Below, piece by piece: positions 11,237 through 35,672 of a DNA stretch of 59,938 nt. The stretch is taken from NCBI GenBank assembly GCA_000934665.2, contig KZ538116.1:62001-121938 (forward strand), written 5' to 3'. The stretch's first letter is position 1; each line of letters starts with the position of its first letter. Under the pieces are notes generated by a model. That model saw nothing but the letters and a program-made list of their open reading frames with translations, searched no databases and had not been told where the DNA came from. Both the position numbers and the translations under genes were made by a program. The DNA comes from Catajapyx aquilonaris (lineage: Eukaryota).

Positions 11237-14200
11237 TTAAGGCTCCAATTTCACTCGTTTCCAACATCCGTCTGGCAGTTCATTTCGGATGTCCTCAATG
11301 TTGTCAACTTCTATCCGCAGCTTTTCAAGCTCCTCCTCGTAGTTCTTCAATGACTGTTTCTGCAAGTATAGGCGTCATTTAAAAATTATTTGTAACAGTC
11401 CTCTGCTCACTGACACTGACAATATGCATGGATCAAAGATAGTGAAAAATATTTTCATATAATTCAAGAATTTTATTCATCTCCACCTGCAAAACGCGTG
11501 TGGCTCCAAGTTCAGCAAGTCTCTTCTCCAGTTCGCTGGCCTGGAAGTCTGCTTCTGCAGCAGCCAGCCGTTGCTCCAGTGCATTCAGTTCATCAGATGC
11601 TGCAAATATAATTTCAGTTTTAGGCAAGAAAAATATATGGAAATACTTTTCCCACCCAGAGTTTTATGGGTCTTTTAACTCACAGACTTCCTTTGTGTTG
11701 TTAAGCTGTTCCAGGATTTCGTTGACAGCTGCTAAAGCCTCTTGCACTTTCTTGGATGCGTCCGTAGCTTTTACTTTGGCCTCGTTGGCTTTAGTAAGGG
11801 ATTCATGCACTGTGGCCTCATCCCGCTCAGCCTTACCCTCTTCTTCTGCCAGATTCTGCGTTATCTCCGCCATTGCATTCATGAGAACCGTCGCGTCATC
11901 TCTCAGTTCACCAGCCTTAACCTTGGTCTCTGTAGCCTCCTCTTTAATGGTTGCAGCTGCTGAGGCTGCCTCTTCAGCCATCCCTTCTGCCTCTTTAGCA
12001 GCATCCCTCGCTTCAGTGGCAACTATCTCTGCTTCTTCTAATCCCCTGACTGCATTTCTGGTCCTCTCCTCTGCTTCTTCAATCAGGTCTTCTATGTCAT
12101 GCACTCCTTTCAAGGCCTCCTCGGCCCTTCCTCTACTCTCGTTTACCTGCTGACCAAAGCCTTGGAGGGTTGCGTATGTTTTCTGCGCCTCTTCCAGAGT
12201 TTGGTTGCCTAATTCAACTGCAGCTTCAGCTTTCTGGAGTGCACTGTGGGCATCTGCCAGCAGTTCATCAGCAACCTGTAAGGTGAAATGATCACTCATG
12301 CTGAGTAACAACTCTTGGTAACAATCATCAAACTCATGCGACCCACAATAAAATTGCCATTTATGAAACATAATTACAGTATTACATCCTTACCTGCTGC
12401 TGAGCAATACCCCTTTGTAACAAAATTTCAGCGTCTCGGGTCTGATCATTAATGGCATCCAGTAAGTCGGCATGGTCAGACAGTAGCTTCTCCGCATCTT
12501 CTCTGAGTTGCTCAGAATCTTCTTCCACCTTCTGGGCCTCCTGCTTGATGCTCAGGGTGTTGAGCGGGGGAATGGTCAGTGCAAATGCTTCCTGATAATT
12601 GGCAATGGAATCATTCAGTGCAGCAGAAGCTTCTCTCTGTGCTGCTGCTGCCAGTTGGAGTGCATCAGTCATGGCGTCCTCTGTCTGCGAGATGTCTTCC
12701 TCCAGGTACCGGATCTCATCTCTAGGGTTTAACACCATGTTATACAGAACAATGTAAAACTTGCGCATTGACATTTTTAAATATTATATTAGAATGCGGT
12801 TGAAACCTTCAAAAATGACATGATGGCACATCTTATTCACCCCACACGTAGTCCGCAGTTATCAATTTTCATAATATTGAGGCTACACTTACGTGACATT
12901 CCGTTGCTGTGTAATTGCATCCTGCGCCAAGTGATACGCTTTGGTGGAAGTGTTGAGTGCTTCCTGGGCAACCATTTCCATATCTTCAGCCTCCTTCTCC
13001 AACCTGAGACAAAATGATTAAGTTTTTGCAGATTGTTGATGACTTCAATAATTCCAATCAGACCCTTTTTATCTGACACAGTACTTCAATTATTGTGTGC
13101 CATTATTATTACTGTAATTTGTCTAATTTGTCAGCAATCATATCAGTACCTTTCTGCTATCTTTCTGGATTCCCTGGCAATGTTGGACATTTGCTCACTC
13201 TGCTGGCCAAACTTCTCTGAACGTTCCATGGCTTTCTGGAGAGCATCCCCACCATCTGTCTCCAGATAGCGAGCTGAGTTCCGTATACTTTCTCTGGCCC
13301 TCTCAATTCCTTCCTCTGCAGCAGACACATCCACTTCTCCCTGGACCAGGTCTTCCTCACACTGTGTTAAGTTGCCCCGTAGGTCAACTGCAGCCCTCTC
13401 CACTTCCTGCAGTCTCTTCCGCATATCCTCCAGACGATCCACCAAGCTGCGATCCTCAGTACCTGCAGGGAAGGTCGTATTAATGTCAAATTCAGAGATA
13501 ACATAATTTGACAAATGCTAGTGTGTGAGAAGTGTTTCTGGTGTATTTTTACTGAGCATACCTCCTGTAGCTGACTTGGCTTGCTTCCAAAGTGCATCGA
13601 CTCTTTCCTGCACTTCCTCCAGCTTGTTCCCAAAGTCAAGATCATCAATGACTGTGGGAGCATTGGCAATGTCATCCAGCAGCTGCTTTAGCTCAGACAA
13701 TTTAGCCCTATGGATGGACACAGCATCCTGCACGAGGTTGTAGCATGGAGGGCAGTCGACACATCCTGCATGGCGGTTGTACTTGTTCTCTTTGCACCTG
13801 TCACAGTGCAACCCTTCAACATTCTCCCTGCACTAGAAAAAAAATTAAAATGTGTTCGTGAAGATTAACTGCACGTATGTGGTTATAATTTATCAGTCAA
13901 CGCCACACTTACAGGGCACTGTCCAAAGGCATCGCACTGCAGTGACAATGATCCAATTGGATCACACTCACAGGGCTTGCATCCTTCTACAGAAAATCCA
14001 AAATGGTTAACAGCACATTCGTCGCACTGCTTTCCAACCACTCCTTCCCTGCAGGAGCACTGGCCCGTGACCACATCACAGGTGCGATTGCTGGCTCCCA
14101 TTGCGTTACAATTGCAGGGACTGCATCCATCTCCACTGATAATGTCATAAAATCCGTTCTCACATCGGTCACAGTTCAGACCTGTCACGTATGGCTTGCA

Positions 14201-17200
14201 TTCACACTGCCCTGTTATTTGGCTGCAGGACGGTACACCATTCTCAAAGACAACTGTTCCTGCATAGTAGCACTGGCAGTGCTTACAGTCACCCTTCTGG
14301 ATGGCTAGAGCATTGCCATAAAAACCTGCGGGAATGAAAAGGTTTTCTCAATTGTTTAAAAAAATAATAGCAAGTTTTGTCAAGACTTGAAAATAGTGCC
14401 GTTAATTAATGAGGCCATTATTGCAATATCCTGGATTATGCCAAAGTAATCTACCGGTATTCTTTTTTAATGGAACTTGACTCTTCTTATGTTCAATGTA
14501 AAATTTCATTCATTTCACTACTAAGGCACTTACGACTTACCTGCCAAACATTGATCACACTGGGGTCCTCCAGTATTGTAAATGCATTTAATGCACTCCC
14601 CGGTGGTGCGGTTACAATTCCCAACCGCATTCGGATCAACATTGTCATTGCAGTCACATGGTAAGCATCCCTCTGGTGCCTCGTAGAATCCATCAGCACA
14701 CAATTCACATCTCGGACCTATGTTCATGAGTGTTGTTTTGTAGTAACATATCAAGGCAAGTCAAAATTATTGCGACCAGTAATTATTTTACCTGATCTTC
14801 CAATGGGGCACTCCAGACATATGATGGTGTCGTCGGCCAGCTCGAGGCATGCACCATCACCAGGGCAGCCACACGGCTTGCAGTCATGAGGTGTGCCCTG
14901 CAATGCGTTGCCGTAGTAACCTCTGGCGCATCGCTCGCAATTGACTCCATCTGTGTTGTGTTGGCAACGGCACTTCCCATCTTCTTGGTCACACTGATTG
15001 GTGTGGTTGTTGCATGAGCATGCAACACAACGAGCAAAAGGTCCACCCTTGGGTGGGTCGTGGGTGAAACCTGACTGGCATGACTCACAGAATTGACCTG
15101 TTCCAATTAATTGCAGCATTTAGTACAACACAAAATTCAAGAAATATTGCAATGAAAGCACAATGTGGTATAACTAACCTATGTATCCTGCTGGACATGT
15201 GCATGTCTCAATGTTGTTTGCAGGAGGTCCTGGTGAATTTCTACTGGCTCCTTCAAGCTTGACGTCATCCAAAAATCCGACTCCTCTTAGTGTGTAGGTC
15301 CCTCTTATCTTCAGTGCAGTCAAATTTGATAGAACTGTTATGAAGTCACGAGCTGAAAGACGTGGACTCCAGCCGAAATCTGCATTTTCATGCAGCCGAA
15401 AGCGGTATTCCTGGTTCTGGATTGTAGGCAATGGGTTTCCTTGGCCGAATATAGGTTGCGACACAACCAGTCCAGCCCCTTCCAAAATTACGTCCTCGAC
15501 TGTGGCCCTCGGTCCATTCTCTCCAATGCGGAGGGTAAAGACAAGGTCTTGGTTGTAACTCCCCCGCTTGTCTCCCAGGAAGCGTTCTGGGAATATAACA
15601 AGGCAGAATATAAGTTTGAAGTCCAAGGCAATGAAAAAGGTCATTTCCATTTGGTGGTGACCATTTCATTATTTTATTTGTCACTTACCTGGAGCAACAA
15701 AGTACACTGCATCTCTTCCAGGAGCAGTAACACCTATGTTTTGTGTTAGTTGGTTGTACTGCATAGATATGGAGCGACCAGTGTACTCTTCGGCTCCCCA
15801 CTTTTCCATTCCTCGAGCAAATATGCTCTCAATGGCGACTGCAATTAGAGACAGTTAGTATGGAGCACAAACTTTTTACTCAATTATTGCTTGCTCACAT
15901 TTGGCATATCCAGGAGCAGCCCTACATACAGATGAGTGCCCAAAACAGAAGCATGGTGTGCATCCGAACTCATTGTCAAGGTCCAACTGGAAGTAGCCAG
16001 GTTTGCATCTGAAAGTATTGGGCCGCAGTACAATTACAAATGCTTACCCAGCAATATTAGTATCATATAGAATTCAGATGCAAGAAAATAGTTAAGACTC
16101 ACTGTTCACATCTCTGGCCCTCGACATTCTCTTTACATTGGCAGAGCCCAGTAACCGGATCACAGTTGAGCTCATTGCCAAGACTTCCAGCCGAGTTGCA
16201 TCCACAGGGATGGCACCCATGGTTCCCAAAGTCATAATAATTCACTTCGCAACGGTCACACTTATCACCAGTGACACCAGGCTTGCACTGGCAGCGTCCC
16301 TCGCTGTTGCACTGCAAACTGCGGGATCCTGTAAGGAATCGGTTTGCATTAGAACTTCTCATGTCTCCTTTTCATAACCAACCTTTCCAATCAAAGATGA
16401 TGTGACACTTACAATTAGTGCAAATAATGCTTTACAAGGTTTTGTGCAAGCGATATCTGCTGGCATTTCCTTGGCGTTATGAGGGTTGCATCTTATCAGG
16501 ATACTAATGTCTTATCTCACCTGTTTCGCTGCAGTCACACCGAATGCAAACGCCGTCGAATCGTTGGTAGAAGTTCTCCTTGCATCTCTCGCAGTTGGGT
16601 CCATCGCGATGTCCAGCACAGTCCAAGCAGTGTCCACCATGCCCTGTCCTGTCGTACAACTCTTGGTCGAAAAAGCACCGGTTGGAAAAGTTGTTGCAGT
16701 TGCAAGCTGCGAATAGCCAGAAAAGGGCGACAATTAATTTATTACAGTCACAGCATGCAGTCACATGCTGTTATTTCTTCAACAGGAGAATGGCAACAGT
16801 ACCATTCTCTATAGGTTGTAGGCTATATCAAAAATACATAGATTCGTCCCACTTACACGACCCTGTGAACCAGGGAGTGATTCCGTCCCACTCTTTCGCC
16901 CCTGTGTTGCAAACAATCACCGCACCGTACACAGCAACAATGGGAACCACAAGCCTCAGCATCCTGCCTCCTCACCATTCCACTCTGTGGTGCAAGACAC
17001 GCGAATTTGTCTGATCCATCATCGTTCTAGGAAGAATTCGATCTGTTTGCTACAGATTTTCCCCGCAGCATCCTTTTTTTAAAGAGGCGGCTTTTGATCT
17101 CCCCCCAGAAAAACATTCCCATCCCCCTGTAATTTGGACGGCATCAGTGAAGGAAAGGAAGCGGAACAGGTTCGCCATGGGATTTACGGTCGAGCAGGTC

Positions 17201-20200
17201 ACGTCGGACAGGTCGTATAAAAGCGTTGCAGGATATGCCAGGTTCTCCACTTAAGAGGCCCCTCTGATAACACTTCCAAAAAACGCCCCAATAAACTCAA
17301 ACGATCCTCAACTTCCCATGAAGCAGTGTGAACACATGGCCACCGAAAATGATAATTACGAGTCAATCTCTGCGAGTAGACGTCTTTCCATCAAAAGAAG
17401 GTAGAAATTTGGAAGGGGTAATCTTGCTGTCAGTTTGTAATTAATAAATCCTTCCCTTGTCGGATAGTAAAATGCTGACAGGCCAAGTTTGCAGTCAGGC
17501 GAAGGGTGGATGTTTCTTACGAGGTGATTTTATTCCACGCCCATGCCGGATAAAAAGGCTTGAATAACCGGGGGACAAGAAATTCCGGGCATGAATATAA
17601 GGAACCGGCTCGAGTGAAGACAGCTTCTGAACTTAAAAGGGGGGCAAGTGCAACGAAAGAACCTGTAAGGTCGCACTGCGGGGGCTACTGGTTTAAATTA
17701 GGCCTACCCTTACGCTGTGTCCAACTGCATTATTATCACATGAAGTTGGATAGAAAAAAAAGCTAATAGATGTGCAGCATTGTCGCCAATTTGTCTACTG
17801 ACAGCACGGAGAAGAGTTTAATTTGTAGGAAAGGTACAGGGTGACCCTAAAGTCTGGACACATAGGTACGAGTAATTGGATTGCATTGTTGGTTGCCAGT
17901 TGTGCCAAGTCCAAGTGACAATATGGGCCAATGCAACCTTTAGACTGTCAACAACCTCCCAATTGGCACAACTGGAAACCAACAATACAATCCAATTACC
18001 TAATATATGTATCCTGATTTTAAGGTCACCCTGTAGAATGATAAGGGTTGATGGATTAGCAACAATTTTGAAAGACAATAGCATCCGTTAAACTCCCATT
18101 AGATATTCAACCATAAATGGTGCAACCACATAAGAGCAAATTATGAAAAGATCTCCGATTAGTGTATGTATTCGCATGATTCATAATCTGACAAAATTCG
18201 ACGTTTTTTTTCTCCTTAATTTGCCTTCACACAGCCGGCTCGCAGTCTAAAATTATTTGCTGGAATTTTCGTCCCACTGCTAGTTACTGCTAACTTAGCA
18301 GTGTCAGTGCCAACACTGGTACTGGTACCTACTGCTAAGTTTTAGTGGGATGAAAATTCCACCCATTGTTATTACTGGAACATGATCCAAGTCAACATTT
18401 CAAGCTTAGGTGAAAATGGATTGACAGCAACCTGTCAGAAGCAACAATGATCACTTGTCTTCTCTTAAAAGTAGTTGCTGGAGTAAACAATCCGTATATA
18501 GCCTATTCTTCTACCTATACAGGGAGCCTATGGCAAGACCTGCTCTGACACCTCCCATGTCACCCGATCCGTCCTGTTCACAAATGCAGATGAATTCTTC
18601 CTAGACAATGTCCCTCTGCCCCTCCCTTTCCCTGCCACCTCCACGTGTTCCACCAACACCCGAGACAATACCGGCAAACACCTCCGCGCACCTGAGAACC
18701 AGAGGGACAACTGCCTAACTCTTGGCCCTTCCACAAGAGGGCGAGACCACCTCATCTCCCTTCTTCGTCTTCTTCTTCTTTCTCATTCCTTCTCCTGTAG
18801 CAATGGCCCTTCCTCCACCTCTTTTCCAGTGGTCCATTACTTCCCCATCTGACTTGAACCATTTTACGATCCGCTTCCTGATAAGTCGCCAAGTGCTCTT
18901 TGGGAAACTCTCTCTGGAAAAGGTTTTCCTCCTGACATGCAGGACTTGATTTGACAACACTGTTCTTACACCGATGGGCCTCTTTTTCTAGGGAGGATCC
19001 ATCAAGCATTCTGATGGAGGTGGTTGAGATGGGTAGGGTTCTCTCCTCGGAGAGGGGGGTTAAGGTAAGAAAAGAATGGAGGCTGGGTCTCGAGAGAATA
19101 AGGGGGGATGAAATGGAAGTTGACGTGCTCTTTGACGCTCATTGTTGTGTCGACCACCAAAAGGACTTGATGTGTACAACCGTACTTTAGCGACCGATAA
19201 GTCACGACCCGAGGACCGTAAAAGCGTGGCTGGAAAATGGGTTGGATAGGGCTAATAATGGTAATAAAAATATGCCGCCCATAACTTCGAATAGGTTATG
19301 ATTATCGCAGCGAGTCCAACCTCCTTACAGGATATTCACACCTTTATTTGTGTGGTATAAGCATGTTTAAAGTAGTGATTACCGAAGTTGCATGTGGTCA
19401 GTGCAGGATTTTCACAGCACTAGGGTGAGAACCGAAAAAGAAAAAAATATCTTCCCCTTCATCCATAATGGAGCATAGTTTTTTCCCCTCCCAAGTTCTG
19501 GGCCCTGTTGTTATCGCACAGCCATTTCTGCCCTGGGGGCCGTCTCGACTTTATGGGTCCCAGAAGCTCTTCGATACACGTCTGCCATGACTTGCGTGAT
19601 TTATTATCATCGTGCTGTACCCAACATGTGCCCCATACGGCCATTATTAATATTGCTGTAATTATCATTATGCCACATATATTTTCCTCTGGGCCACTCT
19701 TGGTGGGCAACAACCTGTACCGGACACAGTTGGTGAAATACTGTTGAATAGCGGGTCAGTGCATTTAAGGCCAGGCTCTTGACCACTCGGACAACGTAGG
19801 TCAACAGGCTTTTGTGAATGGAATTTCCAATCCCTTGAAGGTTTTTAGGACCCCATGGCGGCCATCTATTCTTTCGGCTGCCCCCTGGGGTGCTTTGAAT
19901 TACTGCTTTTCAGCTTTCGTGTTTCCGAAAAGCCTCTTTTGACGAAGGGTGCCCATACTGCAGCAACAAGTGAACACACAGCTGTAAAACGAAGCTTCAT
20001 CTAAAAATTATTTTAAAGAATGGGAGCTTTTCTTATCTGTTCTGAATCACGACGATGAGAATCTAAGGCACGTCGTCCCATCAGCCCAACACTTTTGGAA
20101 TAATGACTCCAATTACAGCGGCCGCCGGCTTTGACAAACATAATCTGTGGCTCCGGAATTGGATTGGCAACGGTAAGCCAGGTTCCTCACTTTGAATTAA

Positions 20201-23200
20201 TGGAAACGTCAGTTCCACTGAAGAAGAATCTTTTCTGCTGCCGTTAACCCAATTATTCGCTCTCCTGTCCCTTCAGATTTCGAAATTACAATAATCCCAC
20301 TTTGTGAACCGTGAGTCGGATTTGTCAGGTCTAATAATCATTCCCGGGTTTTATCATGCTTCTTTGGGTAACGATGTATCCGATTCATCAGCAACCTTTC
20401 TGGGAGGTCCTACATTTCTTACATTATTCTAAGGAAATAGGAAACGTCTTTTGCAGGCTGGGGCGTAGTCCAACTAACCCTACTAATTACCATGAGCTAC
20501 GACCAGACCGGAGCTTCTTCATCTTATATAGACCCCATCGAGCAGAGGAGATGTACTGCTTCTTTTCTGGTCCCAGAAAGCAAATTGCCTCCTACAGAAA
20601 GGTTCCCTGGGGGCCGCCAGTCCATTTAGAAAAGGGGTTCTGGTGGCCGACCCCAGTGAAGGTAATGTAATTTACAACTCGGAGACTATTCTGGGAAGAA
20701 CTTTTTCGGAACTTCACAATAGCCTGAAGTGTACCTTGCCTTTTTTTATGTGCAAAGGTGACCCTAAACGTGACTCGCTTGCCATTCAAAGGAAGGAATG
20801 ACGAGGCGTATATCCTTGACTGTAAATCTGGGCAAAAGAGCACCGTAACTCTAATGTTTATTACGAACATGATCCTGTTGCTTGCATTCTTCGTCGGACC
20901 AAGCACAGTCGAATATTTTGAGTCTTATAATTAAAGTACATGTAGTGTACTAATGAACTATTTTTGAGCTCGTTTTGAACAATATTGAAAATCACCTTCA
21001 AGAATATGAACTGTGCTTTTCCCTGGTGCATCGTGATGCATGCCTTCCTTTTGTTCCTGACGGTACACCCTAAAAGCACTCTTGAACAATGTAAACCCCT
21101 CTGCATATGATTACAAATAACCTGAGCGTATTAGCATATTTTTGAAGCTTGTGTGTGCCAAGGGCCCAAGTCGTCGCCCAAAAAAGACCTCCAAAGAAGT
21201 CGTGACTCGTGATGAAGCTCTTATCGAAAGTGGTGTAGACGGAACAATCAAAAAGTCTTTTCCATCGTCTCCCCCACCTTAGGTAATCCTCCTCTCACGT
21301 CGTAAAAAAGGAGATTGAAAAGGAAAAGAATTTGTAAAAAAAATCCTGGGGAGAAGTGTGGGAGCGGCTCGATTAGTTCCGGTGGAGACTAGAAGGCTCG
21401 AATGGGTCAGGAATGCAAGGAGGTTTATATCACTCGACACGTGTAGTACACTGTATCCTATTCCTCTGTGTCTCTCGATCGCCTTTTTCCCCCAGCTTCC
21501 TTTTTTTACGTTGTCAGATAACGTTGATAAGTTATGCGAAGGTGCAACAGGTTGGAGAAAAAAAAATGGTTGGGGTGGAAAGGAAGCTCCCAAACTTCCC
21601 CCCCTCAAGCCTTTTGACCTTTGAGCTCCAAACCCAGACGACGCCTCTTCTGTCCACGCCCTTCTGCGGGTAACGATTGGCCCACTAAAAAAATCGTTTT
21701 CATCCACACCTAATAACAGCTATAGTCACTACAGCAAACTAACACTCCCATGCAACAGGCATACAATGAACCAAAGTTGTGCAGCATGAATAAGTCATAT
21801 GCGATCCCATTTACAATTTATCCCAGACTAGTTATAGCGGACTCGTTGCCAAATTTTGGCAACAAGAGTCAACACGGACAAACTTGTGGATGGAGAGAAC
21901 AAGCGGATTAGGTATAGGATACTTTAGATGATGATTTTGCACAGTTCAATATGATATTCAATCATTATGCTTCCAAATTGAAATGACATGAGAGGATGTC
22001 CACCTGACTGCTGTCAACGTGCATGTCCGAAACAACATTTTCTGGTCATGATAAGTGACAATGAGTGATGATCCCTTAATCTCCCCTGGCAGCATGATAG
22101 ATTCCAGGGGCCGTGTTCCTTTGGATAGATTAGTCTGAAGAGAGGTTTCCGGTGGGTGTCTAGAAGAGGAGACTTTTCACCTGCCGCCCCCCATAGCCGT
22201 TTTTCTGTTTGCATTCTCCTCCACCACCAGCCACAGCAGAGACCGACCTCCGACTTTTTCCCAGCCAGAAAAGACGGTCAGGGATTGGCTGTTGGACCGA
22301 CTTGGAGGCGCATCCATCCGGAAAGTGTGTGTGTGTGCGTATATGCTCGGGTCAGAACCAGTCGGCCTCCAGTCTTCTGTTTGTGCTCACACAAGGTGTA
22401 TTTGGGAAGTGGAGGTGTTAAACTATCCGGACACGGTAAGTCTGCTGTTTTTACAACCAATATATCACCAGCTGCATGCTTGGAACGGAAACCATATTTC
22501 ACGGGGGATTAATAGTCGCGGTAAATCATTACCTCATTAAAAACTGTTACGTAACTCGCCCAGTGTTTATAAATTTTGGGGATATCACATTAGAGACGCG
22601 TCGTGGTTAGTGCTGACATTATCTACGTACCCAGAAAGATATACGCACCTTTTTGGAAGGTACGGTGTCTCTACGTTTTCCTCCGCCTTTTCTCAGCCTT
22701 GTTTGTCCAAAGACCGCGCGTAGGCGCGTCTAATAAATACGGTTCAAGACCAGCCTTATCTACACCTACACAAAGAGCCTTCCGGCTGAGAGAGCTCTTA
22801 TTTTCACCTGAATTTATGCTAATGTCGGGCAGGGGATGTCGGACTGGAAGTACGCTAACTGCAGGGCGTAAAATTCATGGCAGTAGACAATAGGTGTCGG
22901 CCCTACAGGTGGTAGAGGTGACGTGACGGACCGTCACAATGAGGGATATCGTATTTAAGATCGGTAATTTATGTTGAATTTTTATATTCGGCCTTATCTC
23001 CTCTACAAGTGAATCATCATACATTTGATTTTTTTCGATGGGCGTCATGAGAGCCAACACAAAGTTGCGCGTCCATATTTCTGCCTATACATATTGACAC
23101 AGACACAAGCAGTCTGAACTATCAATTATGGAAAATAGATATCACTATGACTGGGAAAGATGTATTTTTTACCGTGGTCCATTTAATTACGGGCAAGGCT

Positions 23201-26200
23201 TTGGCCATTTTTGGGTCGTTCTGTTAGGAGGTAATTTTTTTGGAATTTTTTTGGCCATTGGAACATCTTTGAGACCATTTTTTTGCTCAAATTTTGGGTC
23301 AATTCATGGGCCGGTCATAATCTGTAGGAAGTGTTGCGTTGCTCTCAGGATAATAAAAAATGAAGATTCGTGGTGCTTCTGACTCTCATGCCATCTAGTG
23401 GCGACCAACCTGCACAGCTTGCGTACAACTTGATCGCGGTTCTTGGCCAGTGTGTCCCTCTGGTTGAAGGAACGCCAAACAGAGCTGATTACAAAAATCG
23501 GGTCAAACCTGGCGCGACACGATTAGTTTAGAAGAGAAAAACCGCCCATAAAGTTTGCGCAGAAGATTGCAGCAGCTGCCAGCTCTCGGGGGATCGCTTC
23601 CTGATCTTTGACCGGGCCGGACCAGACATTCCAATTGCACCACAGCATGAGATTAGACCGCGGAATGAATCCAGCTTTATATAGATTCAAATAATAGTTT
23701 CAGTAGAAATACTCGGAAGCGAAGCGAGTCGTTTTCTAGTGGATTTGTAAAGCTTGAGAGATAAGAAGGAAAACTCGTGGAATTATGACCGCAATATCAT
23801 CACCATCAATGGTTTATTTATGTTGATGTGGTCGGCCTGCATCAATATCTATTTGTTCTTTTAAAGCGTAGAGCAAATAATTTGCACCAATCGACGCGCT
23901 CTTTTCATTCAAAATATGAAAAAAATCCGATAGGAATCCAAAATCAAATAGACATTTTGCTTTTCACTCATCTATAAGAGCGTAAGATTCCCCTGCTCAT
24001 AATTAATTGCTGGTTAATTACACCCAGCATGAAAAGTCCTTAACTGCGCAATCAGTTCGACACAAGCACGATTTATGCAGATCTTTTACACCTGATTAAA
24101 AATGTCCTGAGCATTGTTGCTTCCCTGCCAAATTCGCCAATGACTTATCGAGGCTCCAAGTCGCACAAAACCAACAAACGAGCAGGAAAGGTCACGACAA
24201 TCGGCTCCGAAATAAGGGGGGAAAAATTTTAATTGTGTGTACTCACGCTTGCACTCGTGGGTGTTGTCAGAAGTTGCTCTTCCCCAGGGCACATCGTTGT
24301 AAAAGGGCAGGCACTCGTTGCAATCCGGTCCTCCGGTGTTGTGCTCGCAACGGCACACCAGGCGGGACTGGCCGTAATGAGACGTGCTAGGCACGCACTC
24401 CGAAGCATGTCCGTTGCACTTGCACCTATATACATAAAACCGCACCGTGTTATAGCCCACACACACTCCCAATATATTACTAACTAGATAACCCATAGCC
24501 AAAATTGGGCAAAACCCTTATGACTGTGACCAAGAGCTCTTGCTGAGATGGCCCGTCGATTTACCACATATAGTAGGCTACTATTCTTCACGGATAGATG
24601 GCACACTCTATACCTATGCACACTCCCGCCAGTCTCAGGTCGTGCTAGAGATAGCGATACTATGAGGTCGGACAAACATCCGACCGTGAGAATAAGCCTA
24701 TTATGAGAAAGATACTCACCTGCCGCCCACTGCAAAATCGGATACGGCGTAAAAGTACGACTCCAGTACTTTTGGATCGCCGAACACCTCGTCTCCGAAA
24801 GTGTTGATTCTGTCCAGAGTAACACGTATGTCCGTGGCTGTCACCCATTCCTGCAGCTCTTTGCTGTTCTCGAAGTTGTAAGCACTGGGTCGGCCTTCAA
24901 GGGTCGAGAAGGCCACGTTGCCCCCGGTCAGAGGAGATATGTCCGAAAACTCGGAAGTGCACAGGGCACGAGTTTCTTCTCCAGGACGCAGGTATATCCC
25001 GTCAGGCAAGCTGTACGTATCACGGCACGTCGCACTGTCGATCATAAAAATAGCAATTTAGTACATGGTGCTGATGAAGGAGAATCCGACAGTTTCGCAC
25101 TGCAGAAAACAAATCGCACGGGCCTGTACCTGCTCACAGTACCTGTAGTATTGATATGGTATCCAGGGGCCATCCTGCGACGTCCTTTTGTAAATGGCGA
25201 AACTCTCGGGTCGCGGCGAGTAGAATTTTAGGCGGACGTATGTGATGTCGAAGGCCTTCTCTGCCAACAAATAGTTTGGTCATTATTTTTTCCCCTACTC
25301 ACAACACAAATAATAATTGAGAGAAACTGTGATTCAAAAGTCACGGCATCATGTGAAAAATATGCAAATATTTCACTGAACTAAACTATTAAGTATCAAC
25401 GGTGTCATACTAATTTATGAGACATGACAATCAGTTACCTTTACGATCAATATATCCTGTGCTGTTATATTTTGATTGTATATATTTGGTGCATTTTTAT
25501 TGCCTCTCTTTCAAATGATTAGAATCAGAGGGTAATTAAAAATACTGCATTATTTAAAACACATAGGGATAGGTTCGCAGATGGTGACAGGCTGGACTAT
25601 ACTTCTAGATATTCGCATTCACTGTAATAATGGCATTATTGTGTAAAAATACTAAACAATTGCTTCAAACGTGTAAGCATAATAATCTCTGACGATTTAA
25701 CTGGACACATTCTTCAGTGTGCCTCTCTGACAAGTGAGACATGGCAACTCTGCCTTGAAATCTGATTCCTAGCCTATTCTAACAAGCTGGAAACGATAAA
25801 AGAGGAGGGAAGTCACCCTAATGTGTTTATCCCTCCTCAAGACACAGCCAAAAGTCTCCAGATTCCCAGGGTAGAATCGAGTTCGTAATTTTAAGTTCAG
25901 TCTGGTGTCCCCCCCATCGTCTGTTGTTTTTTTGTGCGTATGTATATCGTGCGGGACGTTTCTCCATCGTAAAGGTCTGATAAGAACTGTTTCAGCACTT
26001 GCAGGCATGAATGCCAATCTTTATAAGGCCGGTAATAAAATCGGAGAGAAGGCTGGGAAAAAGCTGGACCAAAAAAAGGAAACTGGGCAGAAGAAATGGT
26101 AATTACACGAATTGCTTTTACTCGATCCACTGATCACACCATACCCTCTAATTCATTTGCAATTTAAACGGCCGCAAATGCAATCACTGCTATTGAATTA

Positions 26201-29200
26201 TTCATTTACAATATGACCAGGGCAAACACATGTAGCAGTCGTGTAATAATAATTAATGTCTGTTGGTGACTTGCAGAGTCTTTTGACATTGACTATATGC
26301 GAGATTGACCCGAAACACTAAAGTAGAGCACCAGGCTTAGTTTAAAAAGGGTGTATAAGAGAGTCACTCACCCACTTTTTCAATTTGCAGCTGCAAGGGT
26401 GATGTCAGAGGCATGGGAATTAGGAAAGGGCAACATGACATGTTTCAGACCTTATATTGTGCATGTGTGCCAGGCAACAAGTCGACCCACACATTGCTGC
26501 ATTGCAAAGTCAGTGCCACCACTCTCGGCTAATAAAAGTGGGCCCACAGATATGATTCAGGCCATTATTGGATTCACACTTTCCTTTTGGGCCGACTGAT
26601 GTTCATAATATAATTTTTGAATAATTTTTATAACAACACCAACAACGGCAATACCTGTGAACAAGAGAGGTTGGTGGGTATAGCTCGGGACCGTTAGGAT
26701 AAACTAGTGCAAATTTGGCAAAATCCGGCAAAATCAGTATGCCAGTGACAATTTTAATGAAATGGCCCGCCTATTTGTCACGTAGTACTATTTTTCATGC
26801 CCAGATGGCGCATACTCTTTCTGCACACTCCTGCCACCCTCATGTCGTGCGAGAGATAGTGATACTATCAGGTCGGACAAACATCATATGGAGAGAATAA
26901 GCCTATTAGTAGAACGATTAATCGTGCCTTCTTCAGATTGATTGGAAAGGACTGTATAGTTATATATTTTCCCGTGGTCCGCATAAGTGCAAAAAGAGAA
27001 GCAACTCACTAAGTCCGAGGGTCAGGTTGACCTGGTTAGGGTACTGTACTCCTTCCAGCATGGTCTCAGACTGCCACCAGGTCTGGTTCTCGTTATTGTT
27101 GAAGTCCGTCAGATAGGTGGGCGGATGCTGCAGACCCGGTATGGTGTCGTCGCATATCTCGCACGACTTGCGTGGCCCCGATGCTCCGGTCTGTATGCAG
27201 TACTCCTGTGGTCCTTCACGGCCACACGTGTTGGTCGCGTCCACCAGTACGTTGAACGCTGCGTTCACGAACTCGGGGATGCATCGCTGTCACGAACAAG
27301 ACGAAGAAAAAAAAAATTATACAAACATGCTACATGTTGATACCAAGTACCTCCCACGACGAAGCCTTTCACAGGAAGAGAGGCTCCGGCTCCTCCTGTG
27401 TCCTGTTTTTACACCTTTTTGCCCCTTATTAAGGGGAAACCGGAGGGGCCTTCAGATGAATGATTACCCCCCACAAGTAGGACCCTTCTCAGAACCTGCC
27501 CAATTTTAGGGGGGATCCCACATGGCCCGGAAAAGAGGGTCGAAGGTACAGGAAGAAAATGTCAGCCGTCTCATTTACTACGACTCAATTAATCACGCTT
27601 TGTGAACATTTACATGATTCTCCCGATAGTGTTTTACAATGTCTGACATCCCACTTATGATGTGCTTGGCCTCCTTTTTTTTGAAGTTTGTTATTCCGGC
27701 ATAATGCGGGCGTTACATTATTTGTGTTGACCTCAAGGGGGCATGGTTCAAAAATAACGCCGCAAACGGAAGAATACCATCAGGCTCCTTGTAGCTGGCA
27801 GGAATTCAAATGAGTCTGGGGCTGGCTGGCGCGGAATATATGAATTATTTTTACGGATGAATGGCCCTGTTATGGGAGCTCTTTTTCTCACCGTGAGTTC
27901 TCCAAGCAAGCAGCTGGGGCGGCCGATTTATCTCCTCAAAAAAGGCTGCAACTAGCAGACATACACATGAAAAAACATCCTTAAATCTTGGGCGGCCCAC
28001 CAAGCGGCCACGAAGCCGATAAAGAACCACCAATTAAAACCGGTTTAGCGTGATAAACGGAGCTGCGAATTAGACCTTTTTCTACTCATAACAATGGAAC
28101 ACCATACGCAAGTTGTCCAGACCATTCCGGCACATTCCAGTACGTGCCACACATTTTTATAGCCATATATTGACCGGTACGTACATGCCCAATATGTCCT
28201 GCTACTAGTGAATCCGTTGCCGAATATTGGGGCAACACTGCCTCCCCACTTGGACGTAGTACGATAGGTCTGTCTGGCACACTATATGCCGCTCTCAGGC
28301 GGAACGTAGTAATACTGCATGCACGTTGATGATGAGTCACCCGGTGGACAAAGTCCGCGAGGGTGCTACAACCAGCAAGTGGCTCGCCTCCTTTGAACTG
28401 ACCGCTATAGCTCTCGCTGTTGAACGGGGAAAGTTATGACTATGGTAACTACACGCACCTAGGTGATGAGTCAACTTGTGCTCATGGGGATGAAGTCAAG
28501 CATTGTGAATAATTCTGAAAATGATTTTTTCCCGCCATGTATTTATGACTGGCACATTTATTCACTTCCGCATAAGCATCTGCTGGCTTGGAAAAATCCA
28601 AGGGTTTAGAGTCCACCAGCAGAAGTGCTGAAGGATGAAATTACAGGCGTGTTTGGCCAGGTTCCCAGTCCACTGTGTGCTAAAGCTTTATCAGCATTGG
28701 GGCAGTCATAAGGAAAACAACGAGGACTGACCTTTGGCCCCACCGGATGGACAATTCTGCCCTGGAAAGCTTGGGCACCACACTGTGCATGTTCGTACCT
28801 CATACGGTGCAATGTAAATTTTTTTACATGACCAGGAAGGTGGGTGTGGTCTGGTACACACGCAGATCCCTTTCAATGAGCGTCTGGTGTAATTGGGTTA
28901 AGGCCCCCCCCTCCTGTCTAATTTGGCCTCGGGGCAGGGCCAGAGTTCGCCCACCCACAGACTACCGCCGAAAAATCGTACCACTTTGAGGAAGGTCGTG
29001 GTTTTCTCTGTCAGCAACGCAGGACACCCTCTGTAATTGTTGGCTTCTCTCTAATTACGATTCAGTAACGCCGTGTAATTGTCTCGCCAACCGTGTCATT
29101 AACTCGTTGCATGGCTCGACGTCAGATTTTTCAGATGTTGGCAGTGGGTCTGCGTGCAACATCCCGAAAAACTTAATTCATTCGTCGGTTCCGGCAAATC

Positions 29201-30236
29201 ACACGCGTATCGTCACGGCTTAACCACCCGGTTTTATTAATGAACTCATTAACGTCATCTGGCCCAATGATGTAAGTCACCTAACAGCATTTAATAAATG
29301 AGTAATTACGCCTGATAATCACCCTTAATTAAAGGTTTCGTGTTCTCCCCCCCCCCCCTCTCAAATTTTCGATTGATGATGTACAGTGCGTATCCTGCAT
29401 TTTAATTACCGTTTCCAATTTTGTAATGGTATGTCGTTTTCAATCAGCTCAAAATGCCCAGATATGATCAGCCTCATATTATAAGCAACAACCCCGGGCG
29501 GATAATAGCCAAATAATTACATGGCCACGGATTGACCTCCCAGACTGTATTACACAGCATATCATTAGTTAAACCTAAGGCACCGTATTAAATTATACAC
29601 TGAAACCTGCCAATAGCGGAATTGCTCTGACTTAATACTTTTCCGTTATGCACGGCCGCGGTTATAGCTATAATATAACTAGCAGGGGGGCCCGTTCTTC
29701 GCACGGGGATTGGTAAATGAATTACGTTCATAAGACATCGATGTCCCAAGTTTCAGCACTCTCAGTAGTCCGGAAGTGGGTTAGGTGGCCCGGACATACA
29801 GACAAACTTCCTGATTTATATATATTAGAGATATAATAACTTGCAGAAGGGCGGGTTGTATGAAAGCTAATTTGAGTCATGTACGATGCTTTTCTTTTTA
29901 TTTCAGGGTACGTGCCGAACATGACCTGAGTGAGTACCGTACCTGCGGCTTGCCATGCTCGTCGTAACACCGGCTGCCGCTGGTGTTGGGACTGTTGGTA
30001 TCCAGTTGACCCCGTACCGAACCGCACATGAGCATCACCAGGAGCAACAATAGCCAAAAGGTGTTCGCCCCGGGGCTCGCCCTGGGGCAGCAGCCGCCAG
30101 TACAACAGTTCCTCCTGACCACCACCATGTCCTGTTTCGCACTAACCACAACCGTCCTCCTTCCCGCACTAGTCGCGGCACACCGACAGTACGGTACTCC
30201 ATGGTGTCGGTGCATGGGCAACCAACCGTCGGCCAT
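11237..30236 (-). CDS. LanB2: Laminin subunit gamma-1 (signal-LN-LE-L4-LE-coiled coil)
   Basis: Exons at about 30236 (or 30128)-29943, 27286-27010, 25260-25143, 25034-24720, 24425-24247, 16706-16521, 16328-16103, 16008-15899, 15838-15689, 15586-15179, 15097-14792, 14717-14541, 14325-13913, 13832-13562, 13462-13150, 13003-12893, 12721-12394, 12275-11684, 11599-11487 and 11359-11237. LN motifs: [36 protein letters not shown]. Nidogen-binding loop: [14 protein letters not shown]-terminus: [14 protein letters not shown]. Confidence 0.97.
16857..16962 (-). CDS. LanB2: Candidate alternative first coding exon of laminin gamma encoding a new signal peptide
   Basis: ATG at 16962 gives [35 protein letters not shown] plus 1 nt, then a consensus GTAAGT donor. 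Phase 1 matches the acceptor of exon 16706-16521. Confidence 0.6.
17837..18033. mobile_element. Tc1/mariner-type MITE
   Basis: TIRs CAGGGTGACCCTAAAGTCTGGACACATA and (reverse complement) CAGGGTGACCTTAAAATCAGGATACATA, with TA on both flanks. Confidence 0.8.
18261..18361. repeat. Short foldback inverted repeat, probably a MITE remnant
   Basis: TGGAATTTTCGTCCCACT pairs with AGTGGGATGAAAATTCCA; inner pair AACTTAGCAGT / ACTGCTAAGTT. Confidence 0.6.
21828..21919 (-). mobile_element. Very short non-autonomous Helitron-like element (family A)
   Basis: On the minus strand: A|TCCTATACCTAAT..., a subterminal hairpin GACTCTTGTTGCCAAAATTTGGCAACGAGTC, and a CTAG|T end. It shares the GGACAAAC...GAGAA(C/T)AAGC...ATTA segment with the copies at 24484 and 26704. 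Confidence 0.65.
23115..23739 (+). mobile_element. Possible Helitron-like element (3' end clear, 5' end uncertain)
   Basis: Hairpin ACTCG-GAAGCGAAG-CGAGT followed by TTTTCTAG|T ending at 23739-23740. The 5' end TCTGAACTATCAATTAT at about 23115 is only a guess. Confidence 0.4.
24484..24712 (-). mobile_element. Non-autonomous Helitron-like element (family A)
   Basis: Minus-strand A|TC...CTAG|T termini with no TSD; about 200 bp of clear similarity to 26704-26917. Confidence 0.7.
26704..26917 (-). mobile_element. Non-autonomous Helitron-like element (family A)
   Basis: Diverged copy of 24484-24712 (shared GCACACTCC..GCCA..CTCA.GTCGTGC.AGAGATAG.GATACTAT.AGGTCGGACAAACATC), with the same A|TC and CTAG|T ends. 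Confidence 0.7.
29679..29831 (-). mobile_element. Non-autonomous Helitron-like element (family B)
   Basis: Minus strand: A|TCTCTAATATATATAAATCAGG, a GTCT/GTAT microsatellite-like tract, a 3' hairpin CCCGTGCGAAGAACGGG, then CTAG|T. Confidence 0.8.
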
Positions 30237-34800: not shown

Positions 34801-35672
34801 AATAATGAGTGATGAATAGATCACTTCTGATACCAGAGAATTTGTACTCATGCAAACGATTAAACACAGTAACAATTTGGAGTAAACTGTGAAATTATGC
34901 AAATACACAAATATTCCAAAATCCGAAACAATCTGAAATCCGAAACGTTGCTGGTCACAAGCACTTCGGACAAGGATTCTCCACCTAATTTGAATCTTTA
35001 AAATGGGGCATATTTCGGATGGAATAAATGCCTCAACGTGGCATTCATATGCATTTCTTAATAGATATTACATGTAAAACCTGGAGGAAGTTTTTATAAA
35101 CATTTGGTAAAAATTGTTTTATACAGGTAATGATGCTAGTAATGTCACAATCGAATGGAATTTTGCATTCGTGACGTGCCATGTAAGCACTTTAAAAAAA
35201 TGACAGATTTTGTAATTTTGGATAAAGGAGTCTCTACCTGTAATTAAACACCCTTCACAAGCATTTACTTAAGCAATGGCATTATAAATACCTTAAATAA
35301 TTTGACATCACTCCCGACAGATTCCACAGTGCCTGCAGCATCCTTTCCTGTGATAAATGGGTAGTCTGGGATCTTGCTGTAAGCCCCCTCTCGGATGTAC
35401 GTATCCACCGGATTGATTCCAGCCACATGTACCTTCATTCTGACCTGAAACGAGTGCGGTACTATAAGGCCACGTACAAAAATGCAATCATGACAGTGTG
35501 TTACATGGCTTGAATGACATTGTTAACATAGCAACCTTCCTAGTTTCCCTGTGCTTACCTCATCCTTCCCACACTCTGGCATCGGCACATTCTTCTCGAC
35601 TGTGAGAACATCCGGTCCGCCTGCCTTGTAGACCCTCACGGCCCTCATCGCTCGGCCACCCAGCTCAGCCAT
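31873..35672 (-). CDS. CRYZ: Quinone oxidoreductase / zeta-crystallin (MDR family, NADPH-binding)
   Basis: Exons 35672-35559, 35444-35292, 34792-34455, 33911-33782, 32268-32173 and 32037-31873. Motifs: AGINPVDTYIREG, GAALGVPYFTAYRAL, LVHGGSGGVGLAA, ENLANVNLGSDL, VGSRGTVEINPR, AHHDIIHNRGATGKLV. Confidence 0.93.
32666..33345. mobile_element. Non-autonomous DNA transposon in a CRYZ intron
   Basis: Perfect 17-bp TIR AATGGGGAAGTAGCCTT / AAGGCTACTTCCCCATT around a CpG-rich non-coding interior; superfamily not determined. Confidence 0.7.
34040..34193. mobile_element. pogo/mariner-type MITE end fragment
   Basis: Repeated GCGTCTTATATGC units ending in GTCAAATACGG|TA, a typical terminus of TA-targeting MITEs. 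Confidence 0.55.
34908..34986 (+). mobile_element. Tigger/MER2-like transposon end fragment
   Basis: CAAATATTCCAAAATCCGAAACAATCTGAAATCCGAAACGTTGCTGGTCACAAGCACTTCGGACAAGGATTCTCCACCT resembles the MER2 3' end as I recall it. A related end, GGATAAAGGAGTCTCTACCTG|TA, lies at about 35221-35242. Confidence 0.6.

What the first reader, a model, noticed from the sequence alone, without database searches (positions are those of the whole stretch)
16851..17040. Hidden intronic signal-peptide exon predicts an LN-less, gamma-2-like laminin gamma isoform
Seen: about 150 nt upstream of the LE2 exon, in the 7.5-kb intron, the minus strand reads ATG(16962)[36 protein letters not shown]|GTAAGT. The exon ends in phase 1, the phase of the acceptor at 16706, giving ...[15 protein letters not shown] in frame. 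The leader has a basic n-region, a hydrophobic core and a T-G-A (-3/-1) cleavage pattern. An in-frame TGA just upstream makes this ATG a start codon. An acceptor-like TTCTTCCTAG lies at 17027-17036. Known: LN domains drive laminin polymerisation; vertebrate gamma-2 lacks LN and starts with LE repeats before L4; vertebrate alpha-3A is an LN-less form made from an internal promoter. Inference: this single arthropod gamma gene could also make a secreted, non-polymerising short chain that keeps L4, the nidogen loop and the coiled coil. I do not know of such an isoform in insects.
Basis: partly seen in the sequence, partly recalled or inferred. Interest (0 to 1): 0.85.

Follow-up and report, generated by a model that had tools for sequence, protein, structure and literature searches.

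The report
Conserved short laminin gamma start exon
A small exon hidden in a large intron of an arthropod laminin gamma gene is a deeply conserved alternative start that yields a secreted chain lacking the network-forming tip, much like vertebrate laminin gamma-2.

Summary
It is far beyond chance. Of 73 ATG-to-phase-1-GT configurations in the 7,540-nt intron, only this one has a strong donor.

The inference also holds. Protein searches returned many arthropod laminin gamma proteins of about 1,310-1,346 aa without the LN domain. Each starts with a hydrophobic leader and joins exactly at the first Cys of LE2. Twenty of 50 such short forms carry W[DN]G..[PT]W[FY] just before that Cys; none of 118 long forms does. 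The window exon encodes [11 protein letters not shown], the same as the water flea Sida crystallina.

A profile of that motif, built from 14 other species, hits one of 3,232 six-frame ORFs in the window: this one (E 4.5e-7; next 0.076).

So this is the ortholog of a conserved alternative first coding exon. The product has the architecture of vertebrate gamma-2: signal peptide, three LE modules, L4.

No RNA run could be listed for this species, so its use here is inferred. The isoform already exists as predicted RefSeq/UniProt models. Six literature searches found no description. The non-polymerising function is inferred.

The parts
16897..16962 (-). Start codon and signal-peptide-like leader (22 aa): basic n-region (R3), 14-residue hydrophobic core, and T-G-A at positions -3 to -1.
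   Evidence: sequence; the best 10-residue Kyte-Doolittle mean is 2.77; all 20 motif-bearing orthologs have an equivalent hydrophobic leader ending just before the motif. No SignalP was available.
16858..16896 (-). Conserved peptide [13 protein letters not shown], the predicted mature N-terminus of the short chain.
   Evidence: a 13-column profile from 14 other species hits only this ORF among 3,232 (E 4.5e-7, 26.8 bits; next best 0.076); the N-terminus of the Neocloeon short form matches 16899-16858 with 11 of 14 identical (E 6e-6; next best 0.23). Sida crystallina (P0004) has the identical [12 protein letters not shown].
16851..16857 (-). Last exon base T (16857, first base of the split Ser codon) and the donor GTAAGT (16856-16851), phase 1.
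   Evidence: this is the only GTRAG[TA] donor among the 73 in-phase configurations in the intron.
16972..16974 (-). In-frame TGA four codons upstream of the ATG. It fixes 16962 as the first possible start of this frame.
16707..16850 (-). Remainder of the 150-nt intron (16707-16856) between the leader exon and the LE2 exon. It ends in the acceptor TTCGCAG.
16521..16706 (-). LE2 exon, shared by both forms. It enters in phase 1 and its donor GTGAGA lies at 16520-16515.
   Evidence: PF00053 EGF_laminin, E 3.7e-5. LE2 of the short-form model superposes on mouse gamma-1 LE2 (4aqt_A residues 341-396, rmsd 2.1, 56% identity, Z 4.4).
16707..24246 (-). Canonical 7,540-nt intron between LE1 and LE2. The leader exon lies inside it.
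24247..24427 (-). LE1 exon, used by the long form only. Its donor is AAG C|GTGAGT, phase 1. The 5' boundary is approximate.
   Evidence: PF00053, E 2.4e-7; tblastn.
24719..27289 (-). LN-domain exons, used by the long form only (aligned blocks 27289-27026 and 25270-24719).
   Evidence: PF00055 Laminin_N, E 2e-29 and 1.1e-33..
29943..30128 (-). Canonical first coding exon with its own hydrophobic leader. Donor CAG|GTACGG. An ATG further upstream in the same frame was not excluded.
11237..16520 (-). Remaining shared exons: LE3-4, L4, the LEb modules including the [10 protein letters not shown] loop, and the coiled coil ending ...KLEP plus stop.
   Evidence: ORFs. (collinear tblastn to 1,626-aa and 1,317-aa homologs). 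Laminin_B, E 1e-29; 10+12+5 = 27 Cys before the L4 insert.
16976..16978 (-). Out-of-frame upstream ATG, 16 nt before the start. It opens a 41-codon overlapping ORF. Two further in-frame upstream ATGs at 17022 and 17019 stop at the TGA.
   Evidence: They matter only if the unmapped transcription start lies upstream of them.
17027..17036 (-). It is weak, and use from the LE1 donor would read Q-R-stop.

Best explanation
The stretch 16857-16962 (minus strand) is the coding part of a conserved alternative 5' exon of the laminin gamma gene. Transcripts that begin in the LE1-LE2 intron splice base 16857 to base 16706.

This replaces the canonical signal peptide, the LN domain and LE1 with a new signal peptide plus a 13-residue conserved peptide. 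That peptide includes the WDGITPWF motif.

The product is a secreted gamma chain of about 1,300 aa. It keeps LE2-4, L4, the LEb modules, the coiled coil and the C-terminal ...LEP, so it has the architecture of vertebrate gamma-2.

- Shown: the exon, its frame and donor, its orthology to short forms recorded in many arthropods, and its position inside a gene that also has intact LN and LE1 exons.
- Inferred: the conserved N-terminal peptide has a function of its own, either a cap on LE2 or a binding site.
For: - Sequence and frame.
- Uniqueness in the intron: 1 of 73 in-phase configurations has a strong donor.
- Orthology, profile test: a motif profile from 14 other species hits 1 of 3,232 six-frame ORFs, this one, at E 4.5e-7; the next best is 0.076.
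- Orthology, tblastn: the N-terminus of a mayfly short form finds 16899-16858 first, at E 6e-6 against 0.23 for the next hit.
- Census: of the 197 proteins held are short forms (LE2 within 75 residues of the start, more than 1,000 aa). Thirty-three of the 50 have an M-initiated hydrophobic leader. Twenty carry the strict motif, and all 20 have such a leader. None of 118 long forms has the motif anywhere.
- Ranking: the 20 best hits to leader plus LE2 (99-145 bits, coverage at least 86%) are all LN-less proteins of 1,158-1,346 aa (19 of them 1,310-1,346).
- Names given by sources cover mayfly, stick insect, locust, bugs and aphids, beetles, a crayfish and a water flea.
- Transcript-like records: unnamed contigs of 4,534 nt and 4,202 nt encode 1,312-aa and 1,323-aa short forms, which leaves no room for introns. 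This is an inference from length.
- Same gene here: LN exons match PF00055 at E 2e-29 and 1e-33, LE1 matches PF00053, and both lie upstream and collinear.
- Architecture: 27 Cys before L4 in the window and in homologs. Coelacanth gamma-2 starts at the equivalent LE.
- Mechanism basis: chains lacking LN do not polymerise (PMC11260871, passages). [quoted passage not shown]
Against: - There is no RNA evidence for this species. No RNA run could be listed, so the 16857-to-16706 junction and the transcription start have not been seen.
- An out-of-frame ATG lies 16 nt upstream (G at -3 and +4), and two in-frame upstream ATGs open a short uORF. These would reduce translation if the start of transcription lies upstream of them.
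- No clear core-promoter motif was found. Only TTTAAAA at 17083 turned up.
- The signal peptide was judged by simple rules, not by SignalP.
- In some lineages the short form comes from a separate paralog. The Cylas short and long forms are only 64% identical. The Schistocerca 'gamma-1-like' gene has six isoforms, all short. A leader exon is therefore not always an isoform of the long gene, and 'isoform X2' names are automatic predictions.
- The window's own short protein is not in the protein collection.
- The AlphaFold model of the N-terminus is only moderately confident: best model 67.8, the other four 45-53.
Confidence: 0.85

Rival explanations
1. The exon is a chance intronic ORF. An ATG, an open frame and a GT happen to lie in phase with LE2, and it has no function.
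For: A 7.5-kb intron offers many such configurations: 131 ATGs, 73 in-phase ATG-to-GT pairs and 5 ATGs with a hydrophobic start. There is no RNA evidence in this species.
Against: Only this configuration has a strong donor. Its last 13 codons match a motif built from other species at E 4.5e-7, and it is the sole hit among 3,232 ORFs. The motif lies at exactly the same position, immediately before the first Cys of LE2, in 20 proteins from other arthropods, and in none of 118 long forms.
Confidence: 0.02
2. The exon is conserved but serves mainly as a regulatory or relic element in this species. It could be a poison cassette exon that triggers decay of the long transcript, or an ancestral first exon that is no longer transcribed.
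For: Inclusion from the LE1 donor through the acceptor-like site at 17027 gives Q-R-stop. Upstream ATGs are present. In some lineages the short form has moved to a paralog, so the exon in the long gene could decay. The locust gamma-1 X2 motif is degenerate.
Against: The ATG, the full hydrophobic leader, the motif (identical to that of Sida) and a consensus donor are all intact. A poison exon needs none of these coding features. The acceptor is weak.
Confidence: 0.08
3. The exon is coding but is not the first exon. An untranslated exon further upstream, from an intronic or the canonical promoter, splices into it. The protein would be the same but its regulation would differ.
For: The acceptor-like TTCTTCCTAG at 17027-17036 exists. 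No clear core-promoter motif lies close to the ATG.
Against: The acceptor has only 10 of 16 pyrimidines and failed my threshold. Use of it would bring the upstream ATGs at 17022, 17019 and 16978 into the 5' UTR. There is no data either way on transcription starts.
Confidence: 0.15

Closest known systems
Predicted short laminin gamma forms of other arthropods (for example 'laminin subunit gamma-1 isoform X2' of Neocloeon triangulifer P0071, Bacillus rossius P0121, Lycorma delicatula P0010, Sipha flava P0042, Zophobas morio P0108; Procambarus clarkii X3 P0024; Sida crystallina P0004; Clastoptera arizonana A0A1B6D2A0, P0003)
   Same: They share a hydrophobic leader, the W[DN]G..[PT]W[FY]xxS motif, a junction exactly at the first Cys of LE2, loss of LN and LE1, and identical downstream architecture.
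   Different: Those are protein records, mostly automatic predictions, and I could not see their gene structure. The window shows the exon directly, inside the LE1-LE2 intron of a gene with intact LN exons. Overall identity of the window's gene to any held homolog is at most about 56%.
Vertebrate laminin gamma-2 (LAMC2), for example Latimeria chalumnae XP_006008025.1 (P0362)
   Same: A signal peptide is followed after a few residues by the LE module that aligns with gamma-1/arthropod LE2 (profile positions 12-118 against residues 28-135). Three LEa modules precede L4 (PMC3544776 section 8; Cys counts). There is no LN domain, so no polymerisation (PMC11260871 passages).
   Different: Gamma-2 is a separate gene, whereas here the form is an alternative 5' exon of the single gene in the window. 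Gamma-2 lacks the WDGITPWF peptide. The arthropod form keeps the [10 protein letters not shown] loop of the long chain. That this loop binds nidogen is recalled, not tested.
Laminin alpha-3A (short LAMA3 form)
   Same: It is an LN-less chain made from the same gene as an LN-bearing chain (described as the 'short alpha3A splice variant' in PMC11260871 passages).
   Different: It is an alpha chain, not a gamma chain. That it arises from an internal promoter is recalled. No promoter was mapped here.
Dedicated LN-less gamma paralogs in insects (Schistocerca 'laminin subunit gamma-1-like', XP_049813403.1 and five further isoforms, all 1,228-1,327 aa; beetle short forms such as Cylas P0125)
   Same: They have the same leader motif ([13 protein letters not shown] in Schistocerca nitens) and the same LE2 start.
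   Different: They appear to be separate genes. All six S. nitens isoforms are short. The Cylas short and long forms are 64% identical. This parallels the vertebrate LAMC1/LAMC2 split.

Membership tests
Laminin gamma chain (LanB2 / LAMC1 ortholog): the host gene | N-terminal LN domain (Pfam PF00055) | tested here: met
   E 2e-29 (26960-27289) and E 1.1e-33 (24716-25057).
Laminin gamma chain (LanB2 / LAMC1 ortholog): the host gene | LE modules, an L4 (Laminin_B) domain and a long coiled coil, all collinear with known gamma chains | tested here: met
   PF00053 in the LE1 and LE2 exons; PF00052 at E 1e-29; collinear tblastn to a 1,626-aa cockroach gamma-1 from 27289 to 11240; the best named hits are laminin gamma-1.
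Arthropod short gamma form with WDGxTPWF leader | Motif W[DN]G..[PT]W[FY] within the last 16 leader residues | tested here: met
   profile hit at E 4.5e-7, and the regex occurs once in six frames; the motif is defined on 20 other proteins.
Arthropod short gamma form with WDGxTPWF leader | Leader joins directly at the first Cys of LE2 | tested here: met
   a phase-1 donor at 16857 meets the phase-1 acceptor at 16706, with one split codon (Ser) and then Cys. The split-codon position is S, T, E, Q or K in the orthologs.
Arthropod short gamma form with WDGxTPWF leader | Cleavable signal peptide before the motif | tested here: inconclusive
   hydrophobic 10-mer score 2.77. Small residues at -3 and -1 by inspection. 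No signal-peptide predictor or experiment was available.
Arthropod short gamma form with WDGxTPWF leader | A transcript with the leader-to-LE2 junction in this species | not testable with these tools
   One search listed no RNA run, and read laying could therefore not be used.
Gamma-2-like architecture (works like LAMC2; not claimed as an ortholog) | No LN domain; the chain starts at the LE2-equivalent module; three LEa modules precede L4 | tested here: met
   27 Cys before the L4 insert; coelacanth gamma-2 aligns from its residue 28; gamma-2 layout LEa1-3 + L4.
Gamma-2-like architecture (works like LAMC2; not claimed as an ortholog) | Failure to polymerise when the gamma LN domain is missing | not testable with these tools
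   Inferred from PMC11260871 (passages). It needs a polymerisation assay.
Internal-promoter isoform (like LAMA3A) | Transcription start inside the intron | tested here: inconclusive
   One search found only a TATA-like TTTAAAA at 17083 and no initiator motif nearby. There are no 5'-end data.

The most novel reading that the evidence does not exclude
An LN-less, gamma-2-like laminin gamma chain is an ancestral feature of arthropods. It is made from an internal first exon and carries its own conserved N-terminal module. That module is WDGITPWF in pancrustaceans, and a different conserved leader occurs in spiders.

If so, arthropods deploy non-polymerising or network-capping laminins alongside the two classical trimers. 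The isoform has also repeatedly been handed to a dedicated paralog, in locusts and beetles. This would be the same route by which vertebrate LAMC2 split from LAMC1.
Probability: 0.3. Interest if true: 0.8.

Novelty: new variant of a known kind. Interest (0 to 1): 0.6.

Why it matters
Insect basement-membrane biology is framed around four laminin genes that make two trimers (PMC4515764, abstract and passages). All of these have three LN-tipped arms.

A deeply conserved gamma chain without LN and LE1 would double the possible trimers. It would also give arthropods a built-in way to thin, cap or locally soften the laminin network. In vertebrates this is done with gamma-2, alpha-3A and alpha-4 (PMC11260871 passages).

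The short form did not appear for flies or moths among the listed hits. This may explain why it has gone unremarked, and it is not evidence of absence.

The 13-residue N-terminal peptide is invariant at W2, G4, W8 and S12 across 20 sequences. It is a small and easily tested candidate functional element.

Tried and rejected
- RNA evidence: no RNA holder was listed for 16090-17040.
- Own genome: none is held for this window.
- Leader search: the 35-aa leader was too short for the protein search. The 47-aa stop-to-stop ORF, searched against longer proteins, gave 2 candidates and none at E <= 10. This was a limit of sensitivity for a 13-residue motif in 5.8 billion sequences, because the relatives were later found through the L4 exon.
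- Earlier notes of this scan: nothing was returned.
- Structure: AlphaFold2 on the mature N-terminus plus LE2-3 (alignment A1) gave mean pLDDT 67.8. Residues 1-10 scored about 80 with a strand at 8-10, but the other four models scored 45-53.
- Structure comparison: VIA-align placed model residues 15-69 on gamma-1 LE2 (4aqt_A). It did not settle where the leader peptide packs, since alignments that start at residues 1-2 have rmsd 4.6-5.2. I make no claim about packing.
- Exhaustive profile search: multi-LE proteins dominated the ranking, and only one listed representative (P0205, Schistocerca) matched from profile position 1.
- Non-arthropod candidates: the five named or examined records that match the profile near their N-terminus (leech, priapulid, sea slug, sponge and one unnamed record) begin inside LE1. 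They look like truncated models, not LE2-start forms.
- LE1-tail idea: I considered that the leader peptide copies the PW..RAT tail of LE1. I rejected it by eye because the distance to the next Cys differs.
- Core-promoter scan: inconclusive.
- Literature: six full-text searches, including the motif as a string, found no description of an LN-less arthropod gamma chain. Subscription journals and supplements were not searched.
- Taxon of the window: unresolved. The best overall identity to the held homologs (those over 1,000 aa) is 56%.
Full report
**The observation**

On the minus strand an ATG at 16962 opens 35 codons, [35 protein letters not shown].
- A TGA lies in frame four codons upstream, at 16974-16972.
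- The frame is followed by T (16857) and the donor GTAAGT (16856-16851).
- The LE2 exon starts at 16706 behind TTCGCAG. The carried T plus CT gives Ser, and the frame runs on into [10 protein letters not shown].
- The LE2 exon ends at 16521, before GTGAGA.

**The host gene**

Stop-to-stop ORFs, tblastn with a 1,626-aa cockroach gamma-1 and a 1,317-aa mayfly short form, and Pfam define a laminin gamma gene on the minus strand, from about 30128 to 11237.
- The first coding exon has its own hydrophobic leader and ends at 29943.
- The LN exons match PF00055 at E 2e-29 and 1.1e-33.
- LE1 ends at 24247 with AAG C|GTGAGT, phase 1.
- A 7,540-nt intron follows, then LE2 and the rest: Laminin_B at E 1e-29, LEb modules, and a coiled coil ending ...KLEP.

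The LE1 exon and the candidate exon both end in phase 1. Either can therefore feed LE2 in frame, giving Pro or Ser at the junction.

**Chance**

In the intron, one search counted 131 minus-strand ATGs and 73 ATG-to-phase-1-GT configurations of at least 15 aa. Five ATGs have a hydrophobic start. Only one configuration has a GTRAG[TA] donor, and it is the candidate. No repeat overlaps it.

**Relatives**

No RNA run could be listed, no genome is held, and a direct search with the short ORF reached no significance.

A search with the L4 exon against longer proteins returned 148 proteins at E <= 1e-10, of which 120 were listed. The best was only 70% identical. Many of the hits were 'laminin subunit gamma-1 isoform X2' entries of about 1,306-1,346 aa with no PF00055 domain.

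I fetched 24 of them. Apart from a few obviously mis-predicted N-termini, each has a short leader that ends exactly at the first Cys of LE2.

A second search used residues 16-80 of the mayfly short form. It returned 241 proteins at E <= 0.001, with 120 listed. The 20 best (99-145 bits, coverage at least 86%) were all LN-less proteins of 1,158-1,346 aa (19 of them 1,310-1,346). Below them the scores dropped to long forms that match LE2 only.

**The census**

| Group, among the 197 proteins then held | Count |
|---|---|
| Short forms (LE2 within 75 residues of the start, more than 1,000 aa) | 50 |
| Short forms with an M-initiated leader of at least 20 aa and a strongly hydrophobic 10-mer | 33 of 50 |
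| Short forms with W[DN]G..[PT]W[FY] in the last 16 leader residues | 20 of 50 |
| Motif-bearing forms that also have such a leader | 20 of 20 |
| Long forms with the motif anywhere | 0 of 118 |

Source names place the 20 in a mayfly, a stick insect, planthoppers and froghoppers, aphids and adelgids, a bed bug, nine beetles, a crayfish and the water flea Sida crystallina. One record is unnamed. The order-level labels are from general knowledge.

Sida has [12 protein letters not shown], identical to the window. Locusts add a further set.

Spiders (Parasteatoda P0100 and an unnamed contig P0098) share a different conserved leader. Amphipods and isopods have leaders without the motif.

**The reciprocal test**

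I built a 13-column profile from 14 other species and searched all 3,232 six-frame ORFs of at least 10 aa in the window. It hit only the candidate ORF, at E 4.5e-7 and 26.8 bits. The next best hit scored 0.076. The motif regex occurs once in the six frames.

The mayfly leader finds 16899-16858 by tblastn with 11 of 14 identical, at E 6e-6 against 0.23 for the next hit.

The exon is therefore the ortholog of the leader exon of these short forms.

**Transcript-level hints from elsewhere**

Two unnamed contigs of 4,534 nt and 4,202 nt encode short forms of 1,312 aa and 1,323 aa. The same coding part spans 5.7 kb with many introns in the window. These contigs are therefore most simply assembled from RNA. 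This is an inference from length.

The Clastoptera and Sida records also look transcriptome-derived, but that is recalled, not checked.

**Architecture**

The short forms and the window's gene both have 27 Cys between the LE2 start and the L4 insert. That is three complete LE modules plus the first three Cys of the L4-bearing module.

A review describes gamma-2 as LEa1-3 followed by L4, with L4 inserted between the third and fourth Cys (PMC3544776, section 8).

In the exhaustive profile search, coelacanth laminin gamma-2 aligned from its residue 28 to profile positions 12-118. Its sequence shows a leader followed within a few residues by the LE2-like module.

The AlphaFold model of the short N-terminus superposes on LE2 of mouse gamma-1 (4aqt_A residues 341-396, rmsd 2.1, 56% identity, Z 4.4).

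I do not claim orthology to LAMC2.

**How it most likely works**

A promoter in the intron drives transcripts that start with this exon. The promoter has not been mapped. The signal peptide is probably cut after T-G-A, which would leave [10 protein letters not shown]... as the mature end.

The chain keeps the coiled coil, so it should assemble with the alpha and beta chains. It keeps the [10 protein letters not shown] loop; that this loop binds nidogen is recalled. It also keeps the C-terminal Glu.

It lacks the gamma LN domain. [quoted passage not shown] Chains without LN give non-polymerising laminins (PMC11260871 passages). Trimers with the short gamma chain should therefore fail to polymerise, or should cap a network. 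I put about 0.6 on this step.

The leader peptide is invariant at W2, G4, W8 and S12 in 20 sequences, which points to a function of its own. AlphaFold gives it pLDDT of about 80 with a strand at residues 8-10, but four of the five models were poor. Its role remains open.

**Complications**

- The short form is not always an isoform of the long gene. The Cylas short and long forms are 64% identical. Schistocerca nitens has a 'gamma-1-like' gene with six isoforms, all short, and an intact motif. The locust gamma-1 X2 motif is degenerate.
- Procambarus X3 is 90% identical to a Cherax long form, and Neocloeon X2 is 83% identical to a Cloeon long form. Both figures fit shared exons of one gene. The window itself shows the one-gene arrangement directly.
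- Upstream ATGs at 17022 and 17019 (in frame, closed by the TGA) and at 16978 (out of frame, 41 codons) could reduce translation. This depends on where transcription starts.
- The acceptor-like site at 17027-17036 is weak. Use from LE1 would give Q-R-stop.

**Novelty**

Six full-text searches found no description of it. One of them searched the motif as a string and returned no papers. [quoted passage not shown]

Flies and moths appeared only as long forms among the listed hits. That is not evidence of absence.

I rate this a new variant of a known kind. The known kinds are LN-less laminin chains such as gamma-2 and alpha-3A. What is new is a gamma chain made through an internal 5' exon that carries a conserved N-terminal peptide.

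**Verdict**

| Claim | Assessment |
|---|---|
| Observation | Confirmed |
| Real, conserved alternative first coding exon | 0.85 |
| Non-polymerising function | Inferred, about 0.6 |
| Interest | 0.6 |

Noticed in passing
window 5153-9531 (+): A hamartin (TSC1) gene lies on the plus strand, convergent with the 3' end of the laminin gamma gene. Pfam Hamartin matches at E 8.7e-35 (5153-5521) and 3.7e-5 (7646-8290).
   Followed up: partly
window 24617-24713 and 26822-26918: A 97-nt direct repeat, 85% identical, sits in two different introns of the LN region. It may be a short interspersed element.
   Followed up: no
window 47997-48473 (+), 52100-52597 (-), 56020-56565 (-), 34340-34894 (-): Other gene fragments are present. 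They match a GoLoco motif (E 1.6e-13), TPX2_importin (E 2.7e-10), the glutamine synthetase N-terminal domain (E 2e-5, below Pfam's cut-off) and a zinc-type dehydrogenase (E 3.7e-9).
   Followed up: partly
window about 37.7-38.0 kb and about 44.9 kb: Runs of N (assembly gaps) appear as X in the ORF translations.
   Followed up: no
P0100 (Parasteatoda tepidariorum) and P0098 (unnamed contig): Spider short gamma forms share their own conserved leader...KKKSR[VI]RQDFEF[TP]L[HY]A, before the LE2 Cys. The LN-less form thus seems to occur in chelicerates as well, with a lineage-specific N-terminal peptide.
   Followed up: partly
P0205, P0357 and cluster members (Schistocerca species); P0125 versus P0087 (Cylas): Locusts have a 'gamma-1-like' gene whose six listed isoforms are all LN-less and keep the WDGITPWF motif. 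Beetles have paralogous gamma genes that are 57-64% identical. This suggests that the short isoform has repeatedly been turned into a dedicated gene.
   Followed up: partly
P0339 (Narcine bancroftii, 1,191 aa) versus P0032 and P0065 (Hymenoptera): The ray's gamma-2-like chain reads ...VWNGRQYIE before its first LE Cys. This is reminiscent of the degenerate W-N-G leaders of wasps and ants. It is probably coincidence, since coelacanth gamma-2 lacks it.
   Followed up: no
P0284, P0307, P0295, P0288, P0210: The short laminin gamma models of leech, priapulid, sea slug and sponge, and one unnamed record, start inside LE1. They look like truncated predictions rather than LE2-start forms.
   Followed up: partly
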